This document shows positions 15,096-63,863 of a stretch of 64,000 nt of DNA, one piece after another. The notes beneath the pieces were generated by a model. It did no database searches. It worked only from the letters and a program-made list of their open reading frames with translations, and had not been told where the DNA came from. Source of the DNA: Nitrospinota bacterium (lineage in GTDB: Bacteria; 2-12-FULL-45-22; JACOWJ01); NCBI GenBank assembly GCA_016176845.1, contig JACOWJ010000025.1, forward strand, positions 5,364-69,363, written 5' to 3'. The position numbers and the translations under genes are program-made. Numbering within the stretch: the stretch's first letter is position 1; each line of letters opens with the position of its first letter.

Positions 15096-15426
15096 CAAGT
15101 TAGGGAACAGGTTACAGGGGACAGGGAACAGGGATCGTCACTCCTTCCCCTTGTCTTTTTCCTCTTGTCTCGCGTTTATCTTCTCATCACTGTCCATCTG
15201 GTAAATCCTGTCCTTCCTGTTAAAATGGAAATTCCTATACGATCAAGTTAGCTCGTAGCTCGTAGCTCATAAAGGGCTGAGCTCCGAGCTGAAAAAGGAA
15301 ATTCGCTTAAATTAGCCCATGGCTCATGGCTCAAAGCTTTTGCTATGAACAATGAGCTACGAGCTATTTGGCTAACAGCAGGCTGAACTTCAAGCTGAAA
15401 ATAACAATTCCTCTAGGTTCAAGTGA
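15096..15426 (+). repeat. Tandem array of three different heptamer-hairpin cassettes
   Basis: CAAGTTA at 15096 and 15244; tails at 15222-15250, 15292-15314 (truncated) and 15398-15426 (degenerate). Confidence 0.75.
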
Positions 15427-15492
15427 GCACACCACCCAGCCTTTGGCTGGGTCACTCCGGGAAGGAACCGGCTCTCAGAGGTTTCAGTTCCT

Positions 15493-15699
15493 CTAATTTC
15501 TCTTGCTGAGGACCCTCAGCGTCAGCCCCTTTCAGGGTCAGTAACCGACGAGGGCCGTTGCCACCAGAAAGACCCCCATGAAGGCCAGCAACCAACGGCT
15601 TCCTCCCTCAGCGATCCAGATTGCCAGCGCGACCGAGATGAGACCCAGGAGGATCCTCAGAACCTGCTCTCCTTTCCCCACGTTCTTTGCATCGATCAT
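15493..15699 (-). CDS. Putative selenoprotein, DUF2892/YgaP-like membrane protein with two in-frame TGA codons
   Basis: GGAGG RBS; MIDAKNVGKGEQVLRILLG...ALVGY-TGA-CCC-TGA-KGLTLRVLSKRN-TAG; first TGA lies at the family GxCP cysteine; selA and tRNA-Sec are in the window. Confidence 0.75.
15505..15526 (-). promoter_or_regulatory. Candidate bacterial SECIS hairpin
   Basis: GCUGAG-GGUC-CUCAGC starts 11 nt after the second UGA; a second GCUGA arm starts 11 nt after the first UGA. Confidence 0.6.
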
Positions 15700-24656: not shown

Positions 24657-24804
24657 GCAGAATTTCCATTTTTGCTATGAGCTATAAGCTAACTTGAGGG
24701 TATAGGAATCTCCATTTTTAGGGGCTAGGGACTAGGGGCTAGGGGCTAGGGATTAGCAAAAGCTCTTCTTTCTTACTAGCCCCTAGCCCCTAGCCCCTAA
24801 CTTG
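24657..24804 (-). repeat. Two stacked heptamer-hairpin cassettes, reverse orientation
   Basis: TAACTTG at 24690 and 24798 flanks tail + GGGCTAG hairpin; truncated tail + GCTATGA unit to its left. Confidence 0.85.
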
Positions 24805-24806
24805 GG

Positions 24807-26147
24807 TCACATGTCCCCGGAAATGAAGCCGTGATATCGCCCCAGCCAGTAGGCCAGCAGGTAATCTACGCCCGCATATTCTGCCTCTCCCCGCGATCCA
24901 GGATGTCCGTCCAGCCGATAAGGGTTTGCCTTCCATTCGAAGGCATTTGCCGGTCTTTGGTAGACGGGCAAGGGCCTTTTGGCTTGAGGCTTTCCATGGC
25001 GATCGGAAAACCAGGCCTTGCGGATATCCTTTCGCCGGCTGTTTCGCACTTCTACCACTCTCTTCCCTTCCGGGAAGAGCCGTAAGGTCTCTACCGCATC
25101 ACTCCAGGCCTGACCTAAAGGGTTGGCAGTAAGCCCTATATAGACAAAATTAAAAAAAGAGTTGCCTTCATCTAGCACCACCCTCCAACTTCTCTCCAGA
25201 CCCTTGCGGTACTCGTGAAGGAGCTCGGGATCTTTTTCCAACCTCAGCAAGTTATAATAGGCCAGGAAGGCCAGGTGGTTATCGGAGTGATTGACTCCGA
25301 GGAAATACTCCCACCATTTGTCGCGAGCCTTCGCGGCTCGTCGATGGTAACCTTGTCGCTCGATCAGTTCCCGATACTTTTCCTGGAATTTTAGGGAGCC
25401 CGTTATATGGAAGGCGGTCTTCAGGAAGGAGAGGGCCAACAAGGCGTCCAGGTCCTCCCAGGAGCGCGGGCTCATCCCTCCGTGCGTGGTCACTTGTCCG
25501 TCCAGATCCACGATGGCCATGCCATGGTCAACGATATGATCCATGAGGGCCTGGACATCCTGGATGATCTTCCCCCGAACCTCTTTGTCGGCAATCAGGT
25601 CATAACAGATCCCGTAACCGAACATCACCCCGGCATATTGGTCATTACTCACATCCCCCCGCCAACTGTAACCGGAAAAGGGACCCTGGCCGCGATGCCA
25701 TTCGCCGTGGCCACTTCTGAAGGATGAGGGAAGGTCTCCCCGGATGAAAGTTCGAGCCAACAGGCCCCGGACGCCGGTCACCTCCTGGAGCAGATGCAAG
25801 GCCTTTAGGAGGCGGCGGATCTTTTCCAAGGCCGCAGGCCCCCCGGTTACCGCATAGCGAAATGCCTCGGCTGCCAGCGCGCATCCCGTCCAGGCAGCCC
25901 CATCGGGCAGGTCCAGGATCTCGATCTCCTCCACCTTCATCACCGGCAGCCTGGCCTTATAGGCCACGAGCCCATCCGAGGTGAGGTGATTCTCCTCCAC
26001 GTTCCTCTCGTACCACTCGGCCTTCTCCGAGAGGGATAAAGAGGGAGGAGCCTCAGGAGGAGAGAATCGAGGGGTAGGAGATGGAGAAACCGCCCACTGA
26101 CAGCTCATCCCGGCCAGCAAAAGGAGGAGGGGAAGCCTCAGTCGCAT
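24807..26147 (-). CDS. Uncharacterised exported/lipoprotein, probable alpha-helical barrel
   Basis: Signal peptide MRLRLPLLLLLAGMSC; long ORF with normal codon usage. Confidence 0.7.
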   Translation of the reverse strand: MRLRLPLLLLLAGMSCQWAVSPSPTPRFSPPEAPPSLSLSEKAEWYERNVEENHLTSDGLVAYKARLPVMKVEEIEILDLPDGAAWTGCALAAEAFRYAVTGGPAALEKIRRLLKALHLLQEVTGVRGLLARTFIRGDLPSSFRSGHGEWHRGQGPFSGYSWRGDVSNDQYAGVMFGYGICYDLIADKEVRGKIIQDVQALMDHIVDHGMAIVDLDGQVTTHGGMSPRSWEDLDALLALSFLKTAFHITGSLKFQEKYRELIERQGYHRRAAKARDKWWEYFLGVNHSDNHLAFLAYYNLLRLEKDPELLHEYRKGLERSWRVVLDEGNSFFNFVYIGLTANPLGQAWSDAVETLRLFPEGKRVVEVRNSRRKDIRKAWFSDRHGKPQAKRPLPVYQRPANAFEWKANPYRLDGHPGSRGEAEYAGVDYLLAYWLGRYHGFISGDM

Positions 26148-26151
26148 GGCC

Positions 26152-27639
26152 CTATGGCATCCGATGGGGCAGTTCCCCGCGGCGATCAATCGCGCCCCTT
26201 TTCGAAGGCAGGGCGGCTGACCCCGGTTCATTCATCCCCTGGGCCAGTTCCAGCACCTTCCCCTTGACCCAGTTAGCCATTCCAGGTCCATAAAAAGAGA
26301 TTCGGGCCTCGTAGCCCCCCCTCCGGTAATCCTCCTCTTCGATCAGATAGCCGATGTAATTGTTGGCTGGAGCCACGATCCAGGAAGAGGAGAATCCCCG
26401 GGACTGGAGTCTCGCCTGGAGATCCCGCCCGACCTCTACCCCGGGCTCGCAGGGCAAGGCTACCAGCAGGGCCTCGTCCACCAGGAGCATCTGAAAGTAG
26501 GCAGAATCGGGAACAAAAAGGAGATGGGCCAGGCCGTTAAACAGGAAGGAAAAATGGCCCAGGGCGCCCCGGACATCCGTCCCCGGCAGAGGAAAGGTCT
26601 CCCCGATGGTTTTGAGCCGGATCGAGCCCTTGGTGGGCAGGCCATTCGATATCTCCCTGACCCTTTCGGCCAACAGCTCTCCAAACTTCTCCACCCGATC
26701 GAACCCTTCATATCCTGGGATACGATAAGGGGCCTGGTCTCCCAGCGACCCGTTGAAGAAAAGGACCAGAGGACCCCCAAAGGTCATCGTTTCCTGTAAG
26801 GGGCCCCGCCCCGGAAGAGGTCCATCCCCCTCCCCCAGGGCGCGGGCCAGCTGCCCTGGGTAATCCGCTGAGAATTGCATGTTTCGGGGGCCTAAAAGAG
26901 TAGGATGGGCGGAGAAGTTCAACACGTAGGCCAGGGTCTTCCCCTCCTCATCATCCACGCGGATCATTCTCAGATCGGGGTCAGTAAAGTCGCCTTTCCT
27001 CCGACGATTCACATTGAGCCCCCGGGCCCGACCTCGCCCTACCCCGAGTCGGGCAGGGACCCATTGGCGTCCAGCCTGCAAAACGGCCGTGGCGATCTGC
27101 CGGACCAGGTGATCGAAGACCTCGGGATCATACGGGCCCAAGGCCGCCTTTTCGAAGACCCAATTGTCCATGTACCCCCCCACCCCCGAATGGTTGTGCG
27201 TCGCCGCCAACAGGAGGCGGTCCATGACATGGATCCCCAGCCGGTTCTCCCCCCGCTTGATCTTACGGATCACGGCCTTTCGGAGCTCCTGGGTAATGAA
27301 CAGCAGGTCTGTGGCCACCAGCGCCACCTTCTGGTGGCCATTGTCCAGCAGGAGGGCCCGAACGTAGAGGTCATCATGAACTCCCTGGCTGGGCTTCCCC
27401 CTGCGGGCTGCATATCCTGCCAGGGGGGCCTCCTTCGGAGGGGTAAGCCTTACCCTGGCCAGTCCACATCGCAGCCGACCTTCAGGGATGGAAACGGGGA
27501 TAAAAGCGGAAAGGGAAGATTCCCCTCTCGGCCTTGAAGGCCGCTCCTGCCAGGAGAGACAGCCACCCGCTAACCCGGGCAGGAGAGCCCATGCGAGGCC
27601 CAGGATCAGATATCCGAGGAGATTTACCGTCTTACTAAC
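26152..27639 (-). CDS. Neutral/alkaline ceramidase-like lipoprotein (start codon unresolved)
   Basis: PLAGY, LYVRALLL, ATHNHSG, NFSAHPT, FSADYPG; open frame to 27639 includes a LAGGC lipobox but has no ATG/GTG/TTG upstream of 27327. Confidence 0.75.
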   Translation of the reverse strand, partial: VSKTVNLLGYLILGLAWALLPGLAGGCLSWQERPSRPRGESSLSAFIPVSIPEGRLRCGLARVRLTPPKEAPLAGYAARRGKPSQGVHDDLYVRALLLDNGHQKVALVATDLLFITQELRKAVIRKIKRGENRLGIHVMDRLLLAATHNHSGVGGYMDNWVFEKAALGPYDPEVFDHLVRQIATAVLQAGRQWVPARLGVGRGRARGLNVNRRRKGDFTDPDLRMIRVDDEEGKTLAYVLNFSAHPTLLGPRNMQFSADYPGQLARALGEGDGPLPGRGPLQETMTFGGPLVLFFNGSLGDQAPYRIPGYEGFDRVEKFGELLAERVREISNGLPTKGSIRLKTIGETFPLPGTDVRGALGHFSFLFNGLAHLLFVPDSAYFQMLLVDEALLVALPCEPGVEVGRDLQARLQSRGFSSSWIVAPANNYIGYLIEEEDYRRGGYEARISFYGPGMANWVKGKVLELAQGMNEPGSAALPSKRGAIDRRGELPHRMP

Positions 27640-35071: not shown

Positions 35072-35169
35072 TGGCGGAAGCGCGTGGGAGTCGAACCCAC
35101 CGAGGACTTTATTAGAGCCCGCCACTGGATTTGAAGTCCAGGAGGGACACCGGAACCCTTTGCGCTTCC
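35072..35169 (-). tRNA. selC: tRNA-Sec (anticodon UCA)
   Basis: 8-bp acceptor GGAAGCGC/GCGCTTCC, GGACTTCAAATCC anticodon arm, long variable arm, GGTTCGACTCC, encoded CCA. Confidence 0.95.
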
Positions 35170-63644: not shown

Positions 63645-63863
63645 CAAGTTAAGTTTTAAGTTTTAGGTGTTAAGTTTTAGGTTTCTTGCTTAACACTTAA
63701 AACCTGAAACTTAAAACTTTCTCGTAAATCCTGTCTAAAAAGGAAATTCCTATACGATCAAGTTAGGGATTAGGGACTAGGGGCCGGTGAAGAAGAATTT
63801 TGGCTAACACTTAGCCCCTGGCCTCTAGCCCCTCAAAAATGGAAATCCCTATGCATTAAAATA
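63645..63863 (+). repeat. Tandem array of two different heptamer-hairpin cassettes
   Basis: CAAGTTA (63645) - TTTTAGG unit - tail - CAAGTTA (63759) - GGGCTAG unit - tail. Confidence 0.88.

What the first reader, a model, noticed from the sequence alone, without database searches (positions are those of the whole stretch)
15096..15426. Cassettes of different type stack into ordered arrays sharing one junction
Seen: three units in tandem here (GGGACAG, TAGCTCG and TGGCTCA types), two at 24657-24804 and two at 63645-63863. In each array one direct repeat serves as the end of one unit and the start of the next, and some tails are truncated or degenerate while a neighbouring tail is intact. Inference: sequential integration at a regenerated site, giving an integron- or CRISPR-like historical record made of gene-less units.
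Basis: partly seen in the sequence, partly recalled or inferred. Interest (0 to 1): 0.68.

Follow-up and report, generated by a model that had tools for sequence, protein, structure and literature searches.

The report
Stacked miniature IS91-type rolling-circle transposons
The "cassette arrays" are short head-to-tail stacks of tiny gene-less copies of an IS91-type rolling-circle transposon; they pile up because each copy carries at its own end the 7-base site the family inserts next to, so this is selfish mobile DNA and not an integron- or CRISPR-like recording system.

Summary
At 15096-15426 (+), 24660-24804 (-) and 63645-63863 (+), two or three gene-less units lie head to tail. Each unit has a heptamer (yAAr-TTA), a cassette (mostly a hairpin of 7-nt repeats) and a 22-nt tail AAAAWGGAAATTCCTATRCGAT. 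Neighbours share one heptamer. The genome has about 215 tails, at least 20 cassette families and 26-33 stacks.

The tail is homologous to the oriIS right end of IS91-family insertion sequences; E. coli IS91 ends ...AAATTCCTATCGAT|CAAG. The flanking tetranucleotides match IS91 targets. There is no target duplication. The left end is terIS-like: a tetranucleotide plus a hairpin. These are therefore miniature IS91-type elements.

They stack because every element carries the target heptamer at its own ter end. Such ends are occupied about as often (14%) as free non-coding heptamers (21%). A relative has the empty site, a single CAAGTTA, where array 1 sits.

"Sequential integration at a regenerated site" is essentially right. 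The integron/CRISPR analogy is not: no dedicated locus or enzyme was found, stacks are short, the array 3 and array 2 pair types recur elsewhere as composite copies, and polarity of tail decay is only suggestive. The 68%-complete assembly holds no intact transposase.

The parts
15096..15102 (+). Heptamer CAAGTTA: the ter-end tetranucleotide CAAG plus TTA of unit 1. It lies at the position of the single CAAGTTA in the empty site of relative L119.
15103..15221 (+). Unit 1 cassette, GGGACAG type (family 14; copies 88% identical at C58:31112 and C16:20199). The arms are complementary but the overall fold is weak (z = 0.0).
15222..15243 (+). Tail 1, AAAATGGAAATTCCTATACGAT. It is intact, oriIS-like, and has the maximal PWM score of 53.5.
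15244..15250 (+). Shared junction heptamer CAAGTTA: the target-type flank of tail 1 and the ter end of unit 2.
15251..15291 (+). Unit 2 cassette, a TAGCTCG-type hairpin (DNA fold -11.8 kcal/mol, z = -3.45).
15292..15307 (+). Tail 2, the short form AAAAAGGAAATTC-GCT, which lacks CTATAC. It belongs to a class of about 20 'short tails'.
15308..15314 (+). Shared junction heptamer TAAATTA. TAAA-TTA is the family-specific left end of the TGGCTCA family (also seen at C56:71060, C16:46494 and C14:18920).
15315..15396 (+). Unit 3 cassette, TGGCTCA type (family 18). It carries extra inserted bases (gaps of about 9-16 nt) relative to the other copies.
15397..15419 (+). Tail 3, degenerate: GAAAATAACAATTCCTCTAGGTT (PWM score 14.9).
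15420..15426 (+). Heptamer CAAGTGA, a decayed target-type site.
15427..15493 (+). A 67-nt block absent from the empty site of L119. It may be a fourth, very decayed unit; part of it resembles the single degenerate unit of relative L120. The conserved flank resumes at 15494 (TAATTTCTC).
   Evidence: inference
24798..24804 (-). Array 2: heptamer CAAGTTA (read on the - strand), 3 nt from the stop codon of the gene at 24807-26231(-).
24697..24797 (-). Array 2 unit A: a GGGGCTA-type hairpin (-31.2 kcal/mol, z = -6.6) plus tail AAAATGGAGATTCCTATACCCT (24697-24718).
24660..24696 (-). Array 2 unit B: shared CAAGTTA (24690-24696), a 16-nt TAGCTCA-type remnant (24674-24689), and a tail cut after AAAAATGGAAATTC (24660-24673). 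The same ordered pair type (GGGGCTA unit followed by TAGCTC unit) recurs at C40:15543, C16:48372 and C29:13511.
63645..63758 (+). Array 3 unit A: CAAGTTA (63645-63651), an AAGTTTT-type hairpin (-18.6 kcal/mol, z = -5.5), and an intact tail (63737-63758).
63759..63863 (+). Array 3 unit B: shared CAAGTTA (63759-63765), a GGGATTA-type cassette, the tail AAAATGGAAATCCCTATGCAT (63836-63856), and heptamer TAAAATA (63857-63863). The whole doublet recurs at C31:8800-9003, about 94% identical, with unrelated flanks.

Best explanation
Each unit is a miniature, gene-less derivative of an IS91-family (HUH/Y2, rolling-circle) insertion sequence.

Read on the strand shown, a unit is:
- a ter end: tetranucleotide yAAr (CAAG, GAAC, TAAA...) plus TTA plus, in most families, a hairpin;
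- an A-run;
- the last ~17 nt of an oriIS: GGAAATTCCTATRC-GAT.

On the opposite strand this reads 5'-TAA-yTTr^ATC...hairpin-TAA-yTTr^. The same short signal therefore precedes the ori nick (there it is flanking target DNA) and closes the element (there it is part of the element).

An incoming copy is joined next to any TAA-yTTr. Every resident element offers one such signal at its ter end and keeps the used one beside its ori. Insertions therefore also land flush against resident elements, which gives head-to-tail stacks in which one heptamer is shared.

Stacks can then be copied as composites when replication runs through an internal ter end, as in one-ended transposition.

What is shown: the anatomy, the oriIS homology, the target statistics, the absence of duplication, the empty site, and the recurrent doublets.

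What is inferred: the enzyme, which is not found intact in this assembly; the strand chemistry, taken from IS91; and the order of insertion within a stack.
For: 1. oriIS homology.
- E. coli IS91 ends ...GGGGATTTAAATTCCTATCGAT|CAAG about 190 nt after tnpA.
- Similarity among more than 1000 plasmid copies stops exactly there.
- A second E. coli IS91-family element ends ...CAATTTCCTATACGT|CAAG.
- The tail here is AAAWGGAAATTCCTATRCGAT|yAAr.

2. Flanking tetranucleotides next to the tail.
- Counts are CAAG 47, TAAA 20, CGAG 14, TGAA 11, GAAC 9. Their complements (CTTG, TTTA, CTCG, TTCA, GTTC) all have T at position 2.
- This matches IS91 insertion sites: CTTG 51%, GTTC 41%, with GTCC, GTAC and CTCG rare (PMC13181058).

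3. No target duplication, and a left tetranucleotide that is inherited.
- It is G[AGT]AC in 12/16 AGATT-type units against 0/42 GGGxTAG-type units (p = 2e-9).
- The right tetranucleotide is not family-specific.

4. Ter-like left end. E. coli IS91 starts CGAG-TA-GCAGCC...GGCTGC. The units here start yAAr-TTA-hairpin.

5. Precedent. 229-679-nt right-end fragments of IS801 that begin with a GAAC-like tetranucleotide transpose in vivo (PMC3189936).

6. Empty site. Relative L119 has ...CCTCTTTT-CAAGTTA-ATTTCT where the window has 391 extra bases. Relative L120 has one small degenerate unit there.

7. Behaviour typical of selfish DNA.
- 150 of 175 strong tails lie outside ORFs, although 85% of the genome is coding.
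- There is no orientation bias relative to neighbouring genes.

8. Stacking needs no special mechanism.
- Ter-end heptamers are occupied in 15 of 110 cases; free non-coding heptamers in 39 of 183.
- The same-order relative G001 has 8-fold lower element density and no two strong tails within 500 nt.

9. Composite copying.
- The array 3 doublet recurs at C31, about 94% identical including the internal junction, with unrelated flanks.
- The pairs fam3->fam9 (3 loci) and fam0->fam5 (4 loci, including array 2) recur.
- Rough chance probabilities (fam3->fam9 and the array 3 pair): about 0.002 each.
Against: - No intact Y2 transposase is in the assembly. There is only a 26-residue PF04986 match at C24:137-214 and weak tblastn fragments. 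The MAG is 68% complete, so this is inconclusive.
- A closed chromosome, CP070843.1, has 15 tails and no PF04986 match.
- None of 100 tail-bearing loci from other phyla has a Y2 gene within the stretch held for it (at most 8 kb).
- None of 80 metagenomic IS91-family tnpA loci carries this exact tail. 24 of them carry AAATCCCCATAG at the equivalent place. The cognate enzyme is therefore not identified.
- Only about 17-22 nt of ori is present, whereas the IS91 mini-derivatives used experimentally carried 82 bp.
- Some cassettes do not fold.
- Mobility is inferred from comparisons only.
Confidence: 0.75

Rival explanations
1. Integron-like system: the hairpins are attC-type sites and the gene-less units are cassettes that an integron integrase adds one after another at a regenerated recombination point.
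For: - The genome encodes a bona fide integron integrase: C26:23172-24230, TIGR02249 at 506 bits against a cut-off of 265, with Phage_integrase and SAM_4 domains.
- Some cassettes begin GTTAGGG, which resembles the GTTRRRY core.
- The units are hairpins of 50-130 nt that share a junction.
Against: - The units are about 215 dispersed intergenic copies, not one array beside intI. The nearest tail is 4.8 kb from intI, and the region upstream of intI holds other repeats and housekeeping genes.
- The core-site order is inverted (GTTAGGG...CCCTAA, not RYYYAAC...GTTRRRY) and is absent in other families such as ACTTAGATT....
- The conserved part is an IS91 oriIS.
- The flank statistics fit IS91 targets.
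- Cassette sequences fall into repeated families.
Confidence: 0.03
2. Stacks arise without site-specific insertion, either by unequal recombination or slippage between the conserved tails, or as concatemers from failed rolling-circle termination. The order of units would then carry no insertion history.
For: - Same-type doublets exist: C18:7794/7893, and two near-identical units in CP070843.1 (L051).
- Recurrent doublets show that stacks are copied as blocks.
- The tails and the shared junction heptamers (not always the same 7-mer) give short homology for deletion or duplication.
Against: - Most stacks join unrelated cassette families, so a duplication cannot have made them.
- Junctions fall precisely at the heptamer.
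- The empty site in L119 is a single intact heptamer.
- Occupancy of ter-end heptamers equals that of free heptamers, as expected for ordinary insertion.
Confidence: 0.08
3. Host-maintained repetitive extragenic elements of the REP/BIME kind, with a structural or regulatory role (protein-binding palindrome GGAAATTCC, mRNA-end hairpins). They would be spread by an enzyme other than an IS91 transposase.
For: - The location is strictly intergenic, often within a few bases of stop codons.
- The build is mosaic: variable palindromes joined by a constant linker, as in BIMEs.
- No transposase was found in this MAG or in a closed chromosome that has tails.
Against: - There is no Y1/RAYT gene (PF01797) in the genome.
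- Units lie head to tail, not in inverted REPIN-like pairs.
- There is no orientation bias toward genes.
- The tail is conserved across many phyla while cassettes are lineage-specific. That fits recognition by a mobile enzyme, and its sequence is an IS91 ori.
- The target heptamer contains TAA on the other strand, which by itself explains the proximity to stop codons.
Confidence: 0.1
4. CRISPR-like adaptive array: the 29-nt junction is a repeat and the cassettes are acquired spacers.
For: A constant ~29-nt motif alternates with variable inserts.
Against: - The 'spacers' are self-complementary, 16-170 nt long, and belong to about 20 families that repeat across the genome.
- Arrays have 2-4 units.
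- About 160 of 215 tails are solitary.
Confidence: 0.01

Closest known systems
Miniature one-ended derivatives of IS801 (IS91 family) in Pseudomonas syringae pv. phaseolicola (Bardaji et al. 2011, PMC3189936)
   Same: - Both are gene-less fragments that keep the right (ori) end of an IS91-family element and start with a GAAC/CAAG-like tetranucleotide.
- Both are mobilised in trans.
- Neither makes a target duplication.
- Both give read-through or one-ended products.
   Different: - The IS801 fragments are 229-679 nt pieces of IS801 itself, present in a few copies.
- The units here are about 65-190 nt. They keep only about 17-22 nt of ori and join it to unrelated hairpins, many built of tandem heptamers, in at least 20 families.
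- They reach about 215 copies in 1.5 Mb and form stacks.
- No parent IS was found in the assembly.
IS91 / IS1294 / ISCR rolling-circle insertion sequences
   Same: - oriIS sequence ...AAATTCCTAT(AC)GAT|CAAG.
- CTTG/GTTC-type target beside ori.
- Ter end made of a tetranucleotide plus a subterminal palindrome.
- No duplication.
- Termination read-through.
   Different: - There is no tnpA inside the units.
- The target is extended to a heptamer (yAAr-nTA).
- The ori is reduced to a single short box.
- The ter hairpin is freely exchangeable.
Non-autonomous Helitrons and their tandem arrays in eukaryotes
   Same: They work alike: rolling-circle elements with a 3' hairpin terminator, insertion at a tiny fixed site without duplication, end bypass that captures neighbours, and tandem arrays attributed to the replication mode (PMC12001565).
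   Different: The enzyme differs (RepHel against Y2 TnpA), as do the ends (TC...CTRR in an AT site). These are eukaryotic. The relationship is analogy only.
Integron cassette arrays / CALINs
   Same: Both have serial units with hairpin-forming sites, a recombination point regenerated at each junction, and gene-less cassettes.
   Different: - Integrons need IntI, attI and attC with an R''/L''/L'/R' layout, in one locus.
- Here the units are dispersed, the core order is opposite, the conserved box is an IS91 ori, and no array lies by intI.
BIMEs (bacterial interspersed mosaic elements) of enterobacteria
   Same: Both are intergenic mosaics of palindromic units joined by constant linker motifs.
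   Different: BIMEs alternate REP orientation and are linked to RAYT (Y1) transposases. Here the arrangement is head to tail, there is no Y1 gene, and the linker is IS91-type.

Membership tests
IS91 family (non-autonomous derivative) | Right end homologous to the oriIS of family members | tested here: met
   The tail GGAAATTCCTATRCGAT matches E. coli IS91 (AAATTCCTAT-CGAT) and a second element (AATTTCCTATACGT), both read directly at verified IS ends.
IS91 family (non-autonomous derivative) | Specific tetranucleotide (5'-CTTG/GTTC type, T at position 2) abutting the ori end | tested here: met
   CAAG, TAAA, CGAG, TGAA and GAAC make up most flanks of 167 strong tails. The IS91 target spectrum comes from PMC13181058.
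IS91 family (non-autonomous derivative) | No target-site duplication | tested here: met
   Left and right tetranucleotides differ within units. The left one is family-specific and the right one is not. The empty site holds one heptamer.
IS91 family (non-autonomous derivative) | terIS: a subterminal palindrome next to a cleavage tetranucleotide that resembles the target | tested here: met
   yAAr-TTA is followed by a hairpin in most families, and the IS91 left end has the same layout. It is not met by every copy: unit 1 of array 1 has z = 0.0 and unit B of array 2 has a 16-nt cassette.
IS91 family (non-autonomous derivative) | A Y2 HUH transposase (PF04986) available in the genome | tested here: inconclusive
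   There is only a 26-residue match (24.7 bits) at C24:137-214 and weak fragments. The assembly is 68% complete. A closed chromosome with 15 tails has none.
IS91 family (non-autonomous derivative) | Read-through / one-ended products | tested here: met
   Doublets recur at unrelated loci with their internal junction conserved. This is an inference from sequence, not an observed event.
IS91 family (non-autonomous derivative) | Actual transposition by a rolling-circle intermediate | not testable with these tools
   Only insertion polymorphism against relatives was seen.
Integron | Array adjacent to intI/attI | tested here: not met
   intI is at C26:23172-24230 and the nearest tail is at C26:18311. 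The three arrays lie on another contig.
Integron | attC layout: 5'-RYYYAAC ... GTTRRRY-3' | tested here: not met
   The GGGxTAG family reads GTTAGGG...CCCTAA(A), which is the opposite order. Other families lack both cores.
CRISPR | Unique spacers between identical repeats | tested here: not met
   The inserts belong to about 20 repeated, self-complementary families.
CRISPR | cas genes nearby | not tested
   No search was made, because the previous feature already fails.
REP/REPIN-RAYT | Y1 (RAYT) transposase in the genome | tested here: not met
   PF01797 has no match in the genome, while the control genomes do respond.
REP/REPIN-RAYT | Inverted pairs of REPs | tested here: not met
   Of close pairs, 29 are on the same strand and 6 on opposite strands.

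The most novel reading that the evidence does not exclude
The stacks could be partly chronological tapes. The transposase's own termination signal (hairpin + TAA-yTTr) would be its preferred landing site, so newcomers are added at the ter side and the oldest unit stays beside the original target. Array 1 looks exactly like this: intact, then short, then degenerate, then barely recognisable tails, ending at the ancestral CAAGTTA.

The same logic would make any hairpin next to a heptamer mobilisable. Stacks would then be the place where new cassette families are born, by read-through and loss of an internal tail.

Together with the cross-phylum spread of one 20-nt ori box, and its presence in genomes without a recognisable Y2 gene, this would define an unrecognised, very abundant superfamily of modular miniature rolling-circle elements in uncultivated bacteria.
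Probability: 0.2. Interest if true: 0.65.

Novelty: new variant of a known kind. Interest (0 to 1): 0.42.

Why it matters
IS91/ISCR elements matter because they capture and move neighbouring DNA, yet their end recognition is poorly understood. Here nature supplies hundreds of minimal substrates. About 20 nt of ori, a heptamer and, in most families, a hairpin appear to be enough.

The stacks show that the element's own ter end works as a target. The recurrent doublets give sequence evidence consistent with termination bypass.

This yields testable minimal-substrate rules for HUH/Y2 transposases. It also explains a class of repeats that breaks metagenome assemblies: a same-species contig ends inside one, as do at least two contigs of this assembly. 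Finally, it warns annotators against reading such arrays as integron or CRISPR relatives.

Tried and rejected
No read-level check of presence/absence polymorphism was possible.
- The exact-protein look-up for the deformylase next to array 1 found nothing. Homologues then gave two useful relatives.
- The gene flanking array 3 has no relative above 64% identity.
- Searching papers for the tail sequence gave nothing.
- BLAST of the 30-nt junction against plasmids gave only chance-level hits.
- Rfam finds nothing in the arrays; the only hit in the window is tRNA-Sec.
- I tried to tie the exact tail to a transposase gene in three ways, all negative:
  - tblastn of two Y2 proteins against 100 tail loci;
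  - 80 metagenomic IS91-family loci;
  - the own genome.
- I tried two age proxies for polarity. Cassette similarity to the nearest other copy was confounded by uncertain left boundaries. When identity alone was used, the trend was as expected but not significant: 94.5% against 92.2%, 11 vs 7, p = 0.23.
- A target-site-duplication model was rejected because left and right tetranucleotides differ.
- An IS200/IS605-type model was rejected because there is no Y1 gene and the right-hand tetranucleotide varies among near-identical copies.
- A terminator reading was rejected: an A-run, not a T-run, follows the hairpin, and there is no orientation bias.

Full report
**1. What is in the sequence**

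The three arrays exist as described (coordinates checked). A unit, read in the orientation of array 1, has four parts:
- a heptamer yAAr-TTA;
- a cassette;
- an A-run;
- the box GGAAATTCCTATRC-GAT.

The next heptamer follows directly and is also the start of the next unit.

Array 1 (15096-15426, + strand) has three units:
- Unit 1 has an intact tail.
- Unit 2 has a short tail, AAAAAGGAAATTC-GCT.
- Unit 3 has a degenerate tail.

Array 2 (24660-24804, - strand) has a strong GGGGCTA hairpin unit followed by a 16-nt remnant whose tail stops after GGAAATTC. Array 3 (63645-63863, + strand) has an AAGTTTT-type unit followed by a GGGATTA-type unit.

The cassettes range from very stable hairpins to sequences that fold no better than shuffles. 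DNA fold z-scores are -6.6, -5.5 and -3.5 at the stable end, and 0.0 and -0.3 at the other.

**2. Genome-wide picture**

The window is C61:5364-69363 of a 1.53-Mb MAG with 61 contigs, 58% GC and 68% completeness. Its only same-order relative in the genome set is a Nitrospinae MAG, RIFCSPLOWO2_12_FULL_45_22.

- A position matrix built from 141 seeds finds 215 tails at score >=10, against 4 in the reversed-sequence control.
- Conservation covers exactly AAAAW GGAAATTCCTATRC GAT yAAr TTA and stops there.
- The 32 nt upstream of the tails cluster into more than 20 families. The largest are GGGxTAG with 48 members, AAGTTTT with 24, and AGATTCC/AGATTGC with 23.
- 150 of 175 strong tails lie outside ORFs, although about 85% of the genome is coding.
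- The elements show no orientation preference relative to neighbouring genes: 45/39/29/29. This argues against a terminator or regulatory role.

**3. Stacks**

- Chaining same-strand tails no more than 260 nt apart gives 23 doublets and 3 triplets. An indel-tolerant nhmmer search gives 33 stacks.
- Of neighbouring tail pairs closer than 250 nt, 29 are on the same strand and 6 on opposite strands (p = 1e-4).
- In most stacks the next cassette starts directly after the heptamer.
- Stacks also occur in other phyla.

**4. Identity of the tail**

The 21-nt pattern occurs in at least 100 loci from many groups, always with lineage-specific upstream sequence. The groups include Brocadiaceae and other Planctomycetota, Syntrophobacteria, Nitrospirota, Nitrospinota, Omnitrophota, Latescibacterota, Verrucomicrobiota and Cloacimonadota.

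Earlier AI notes on this genome said the box is an IS91 oriIS. I tested that on real elements:
- In an E. coli plasmid the annotated IS91 tnpA is followed about 190 nt later by GGGGATTTAAATTCCTATCGAT|CAAG.
- Similarity among more than 1000 plasmid copies ends exactly there.
- A second E. coli IS91-family element ends CAATTTCCTATACGT|CAAG.
- The IS91 left end reads CGAG-TA-GCAGCC..GGCTGC, which is a tetranucleotide plus a hairpin.

The literature gives the family rules (PMC13181058):
- No target duplication.
- A target tetranucleotide, CTTG or GTTC, beside oriIS, with GTCC, GTAC and CTCG rare and T fixed at position 2.
- A single subterminal palindrome next to the terIS cleavage site.

The units obey all of these rules:
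- The tetranucleotides beside the tail are CAAG 47, TAAA 20, CGAG 14, TGAA 11 and GAAC 9. Their complements all have T at position 2.
- The left tetranucleotide is inherited with the cassette. It is G[AGT]AC in 12/16 AGATT-type units and 0/42 GGGxTAG units (p = 2e-9).
- The right tetranucleotide varies among near-identical copies. So the right one is flanking target DNA, the left one is part of the element, and there is no duplication.

Gene-less IS801 fragments that consist of the right end plus a GAAC-like start do transpose in vivo (PMC3189936). That is the closest published precedent.

**5. Empty site**

The gene left of array 1 is peptide deformylase. Two Logan contigs from relatives keep the synteny YgaP-like_TM - def - tRNA_edit. 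All three def proteins are 82-85% identical to each other.

In window orientation:
- L119 reads CCTCTTTT-CAAGTTA-ATTTCTTTTGC. This is the empty site.
- L120 has one small degenerate unit at the same point: CAAG-GGAGTCGCGAGTCC-GAAAAGGAAACCCTTGTGTGAT-CCCG-TTAATTT.
- The window has units 1-3 plus a further 67 nt (15427-15493) before the conserved flank resumes at 15494.

More generally, a target that contains TAA would explain why units so often sit within a few bases of stop codons.

For array 2, the first part is identical in a same-species contig from another sample. That contig breaks inside the heptamer repeats. Relatives at 78-81% identity have no unit there and a different neighbouring gene. 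Arrays are therefore not conserved across divergent relatives.

**6. Why they stack**

I counted the eight commonest target heptamers in non-coding DNA:
- 183 are free, and 39 of these (21%) have a tail inserted beside them.
- 110 are ter ends of resident units, and 15 of these (14%) have a tail beside them.

Resident ends are therefore used about as often as any other site. Stacking follows from target mimicry and the very high element density, about 140 per Mb. In the same-order relative the density is about 17 per Mb. There, none of the 62 strong tails lies within 500 nt of another.

**7. Is a stack a historical record?**

Array 1 shows a clean gradient. The tails run intact, short, degenerate, then a barely recognisable fourth block next to the ancestral site. 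This fits additions at the ter side.

Genome-wide the picture is weaker:
- With the gapless matrix, the last (target-proximal) tail is much weaker than the first in 10 stacks, and the reverse holds in 1 (p = 0.012).
- The indel-tolerant search also picks up cassette-less 3' half-tails to the left of units. With it the count is 18 vs 15 (not significant).
- Cassette identity to the nearest other copy trends the same way but is not significant.
- Seven stacks from other phyla are mixed.
- Several 'truncated' tails belong to a recurrent short form, GGAAATTC(C)(T) + 2-4 nt + yAAr-TTA, with about 20 copies. This may be a natural ori variant and not decay.

Some stacks are not local records at all:
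- The array 3 doublet recurs at C31:8800-9003. It is about 94% identical over both units and the internal junction, apart from heptamer copy number, and the flanks are unrelated.
- The ordered pair fam3->fam9 occurs at three loci.
- The pair fam0->fam5 occurs at four loci, including array 2.
- The rough chance probability is about 0.002 each for fam3->fam9 and for the array 3 pair; fam0->fam5 is not clearly above chance.

This is what termination read-through of an IS91-type element would produce.

**8. Alternatives**

- Integron: the genome does encode a true integron integrase. However, it lies on another contig, away from any array. The cassette core order is wrong, and the conserved box is an IS91 ori.
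- REP/RAYT: there is no Y1/RAYT gene.
- CRISPR: this is excluded because the inserts are themselves repeated families.

**9. Open points**

- No intact Y2 transposase is in the assembly.
- None was found next to this exact tail anywhere I looked.
- A closed chromosome with 15 tails lacks the domain.

The enzyme assignment therefore rests on the ends and the target rules, not on a linked gene.

**Verdict**

Its framing as an integron- or CRISPR-like record is not. These are stacked miniature IS91-type rolling-circle elements, a new variant of a known kind.

Noticed in passing
G000:C26:23172-24230 (+), outside the window; locus L118 8173-9231: A bona fide integron integrase (TIGR02249 at 506 bits, cut-off 265). 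No obvious cassette array lies upstream. Instead there are two copies of a ~120-nt repeat (GAATTTTACCGTGAAAATRCC(C)AAG ... CAACTT ... CATGTCGGTTT), followed by rsmG-like and Crp/Fnr-like genes. The motif TTTTACCGTGAAAATGCCAAGGG also occurs at C16 ~30169.
   Followed up: partly
About 20 sites, e.g. window 15292-15307; C58:12276; C56:55092; C35:42708; C35:62197; C20:14662: A recurrent 'short tail', GGAAATTC(C)(T) + 2-4 nt + yAAr-TTA, which lacks TATRC. A full-length IS91-family tnpA in a Syntrophobacteraceae MAG (L106) is followed by CATTTCC-CGT-CAAT. The short form may therefore be a natural ori variant and not a deletion.
   Followed up: partly
C33:5141, C34:6369, C22:17440 (genome coordinates): 3' halves of a tail ((T)CCTATACGAT-yAAr-TTA) sit directly left of complete units with no cassette before them. 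They mirror the 5' half-tails that end at GGAAATTC. A breakpoint hot spot at GGAAATTC|C, or imprecise termination, is unexplained.
   Followed up: no
C16:20325-20356; C29:~5154-5190; C35:69885-69925: Three convergent pairs in which two ori tails face each other, overlapping or 7-12 nt apart. An example is AAAAAGGAAATTC|GTATAGGAATTTCCATTTT.
   Followed up: no
L018/L051 (CP070843.1, closed Deltaproteobacteria chromosome); G041-G046: The same ori box occurs 15-62 times in genomes of several phyla. The closed chromosome has 15 copies and no PF04986 match at all.
   Followed up: partly
L125-L204 (metagenome IS91-family tnpA loci): 24 of 77 loci carry AAATCCCCATAG about 200 nt downstream of tnpA. 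This looks like the clade-specific counterpart of AAATTCCTATAC.
   Followed up: partly
window 63690-63705 and 63806-63820; C31:8860-8990: Unrelated cassette families share a loop core: TTGCTTAACACTTA in the AAGTTTT type and TTGCTAACACTTA in a GGGATTA subtype. This suggests that arms are replaced around a retained loop, or that neighbours recombine. Heptamer copy number varies between copies (2-8 repeats).
   Followed up: no
G000:C26:18311-18339 within the open frame C26:16561-20127 (+): One complete unit lies inside a 1188-codon open frame. 25 of 175 strong tails overlap greedy ORFs of at least 90 aa. I did not check whether these are real genes or chance frames.
   Followed up: no
window 35076-35169 (-): A tRNA-Sec gene (Rfam RF01852, 70 bits).
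   Followed up: no
L121 (Logan SRR12113428) end; C11 end; C29 end: Contigs of this species tend to end inside these repeats, so the elements fragment short-read assemblies.
   Followed up: no
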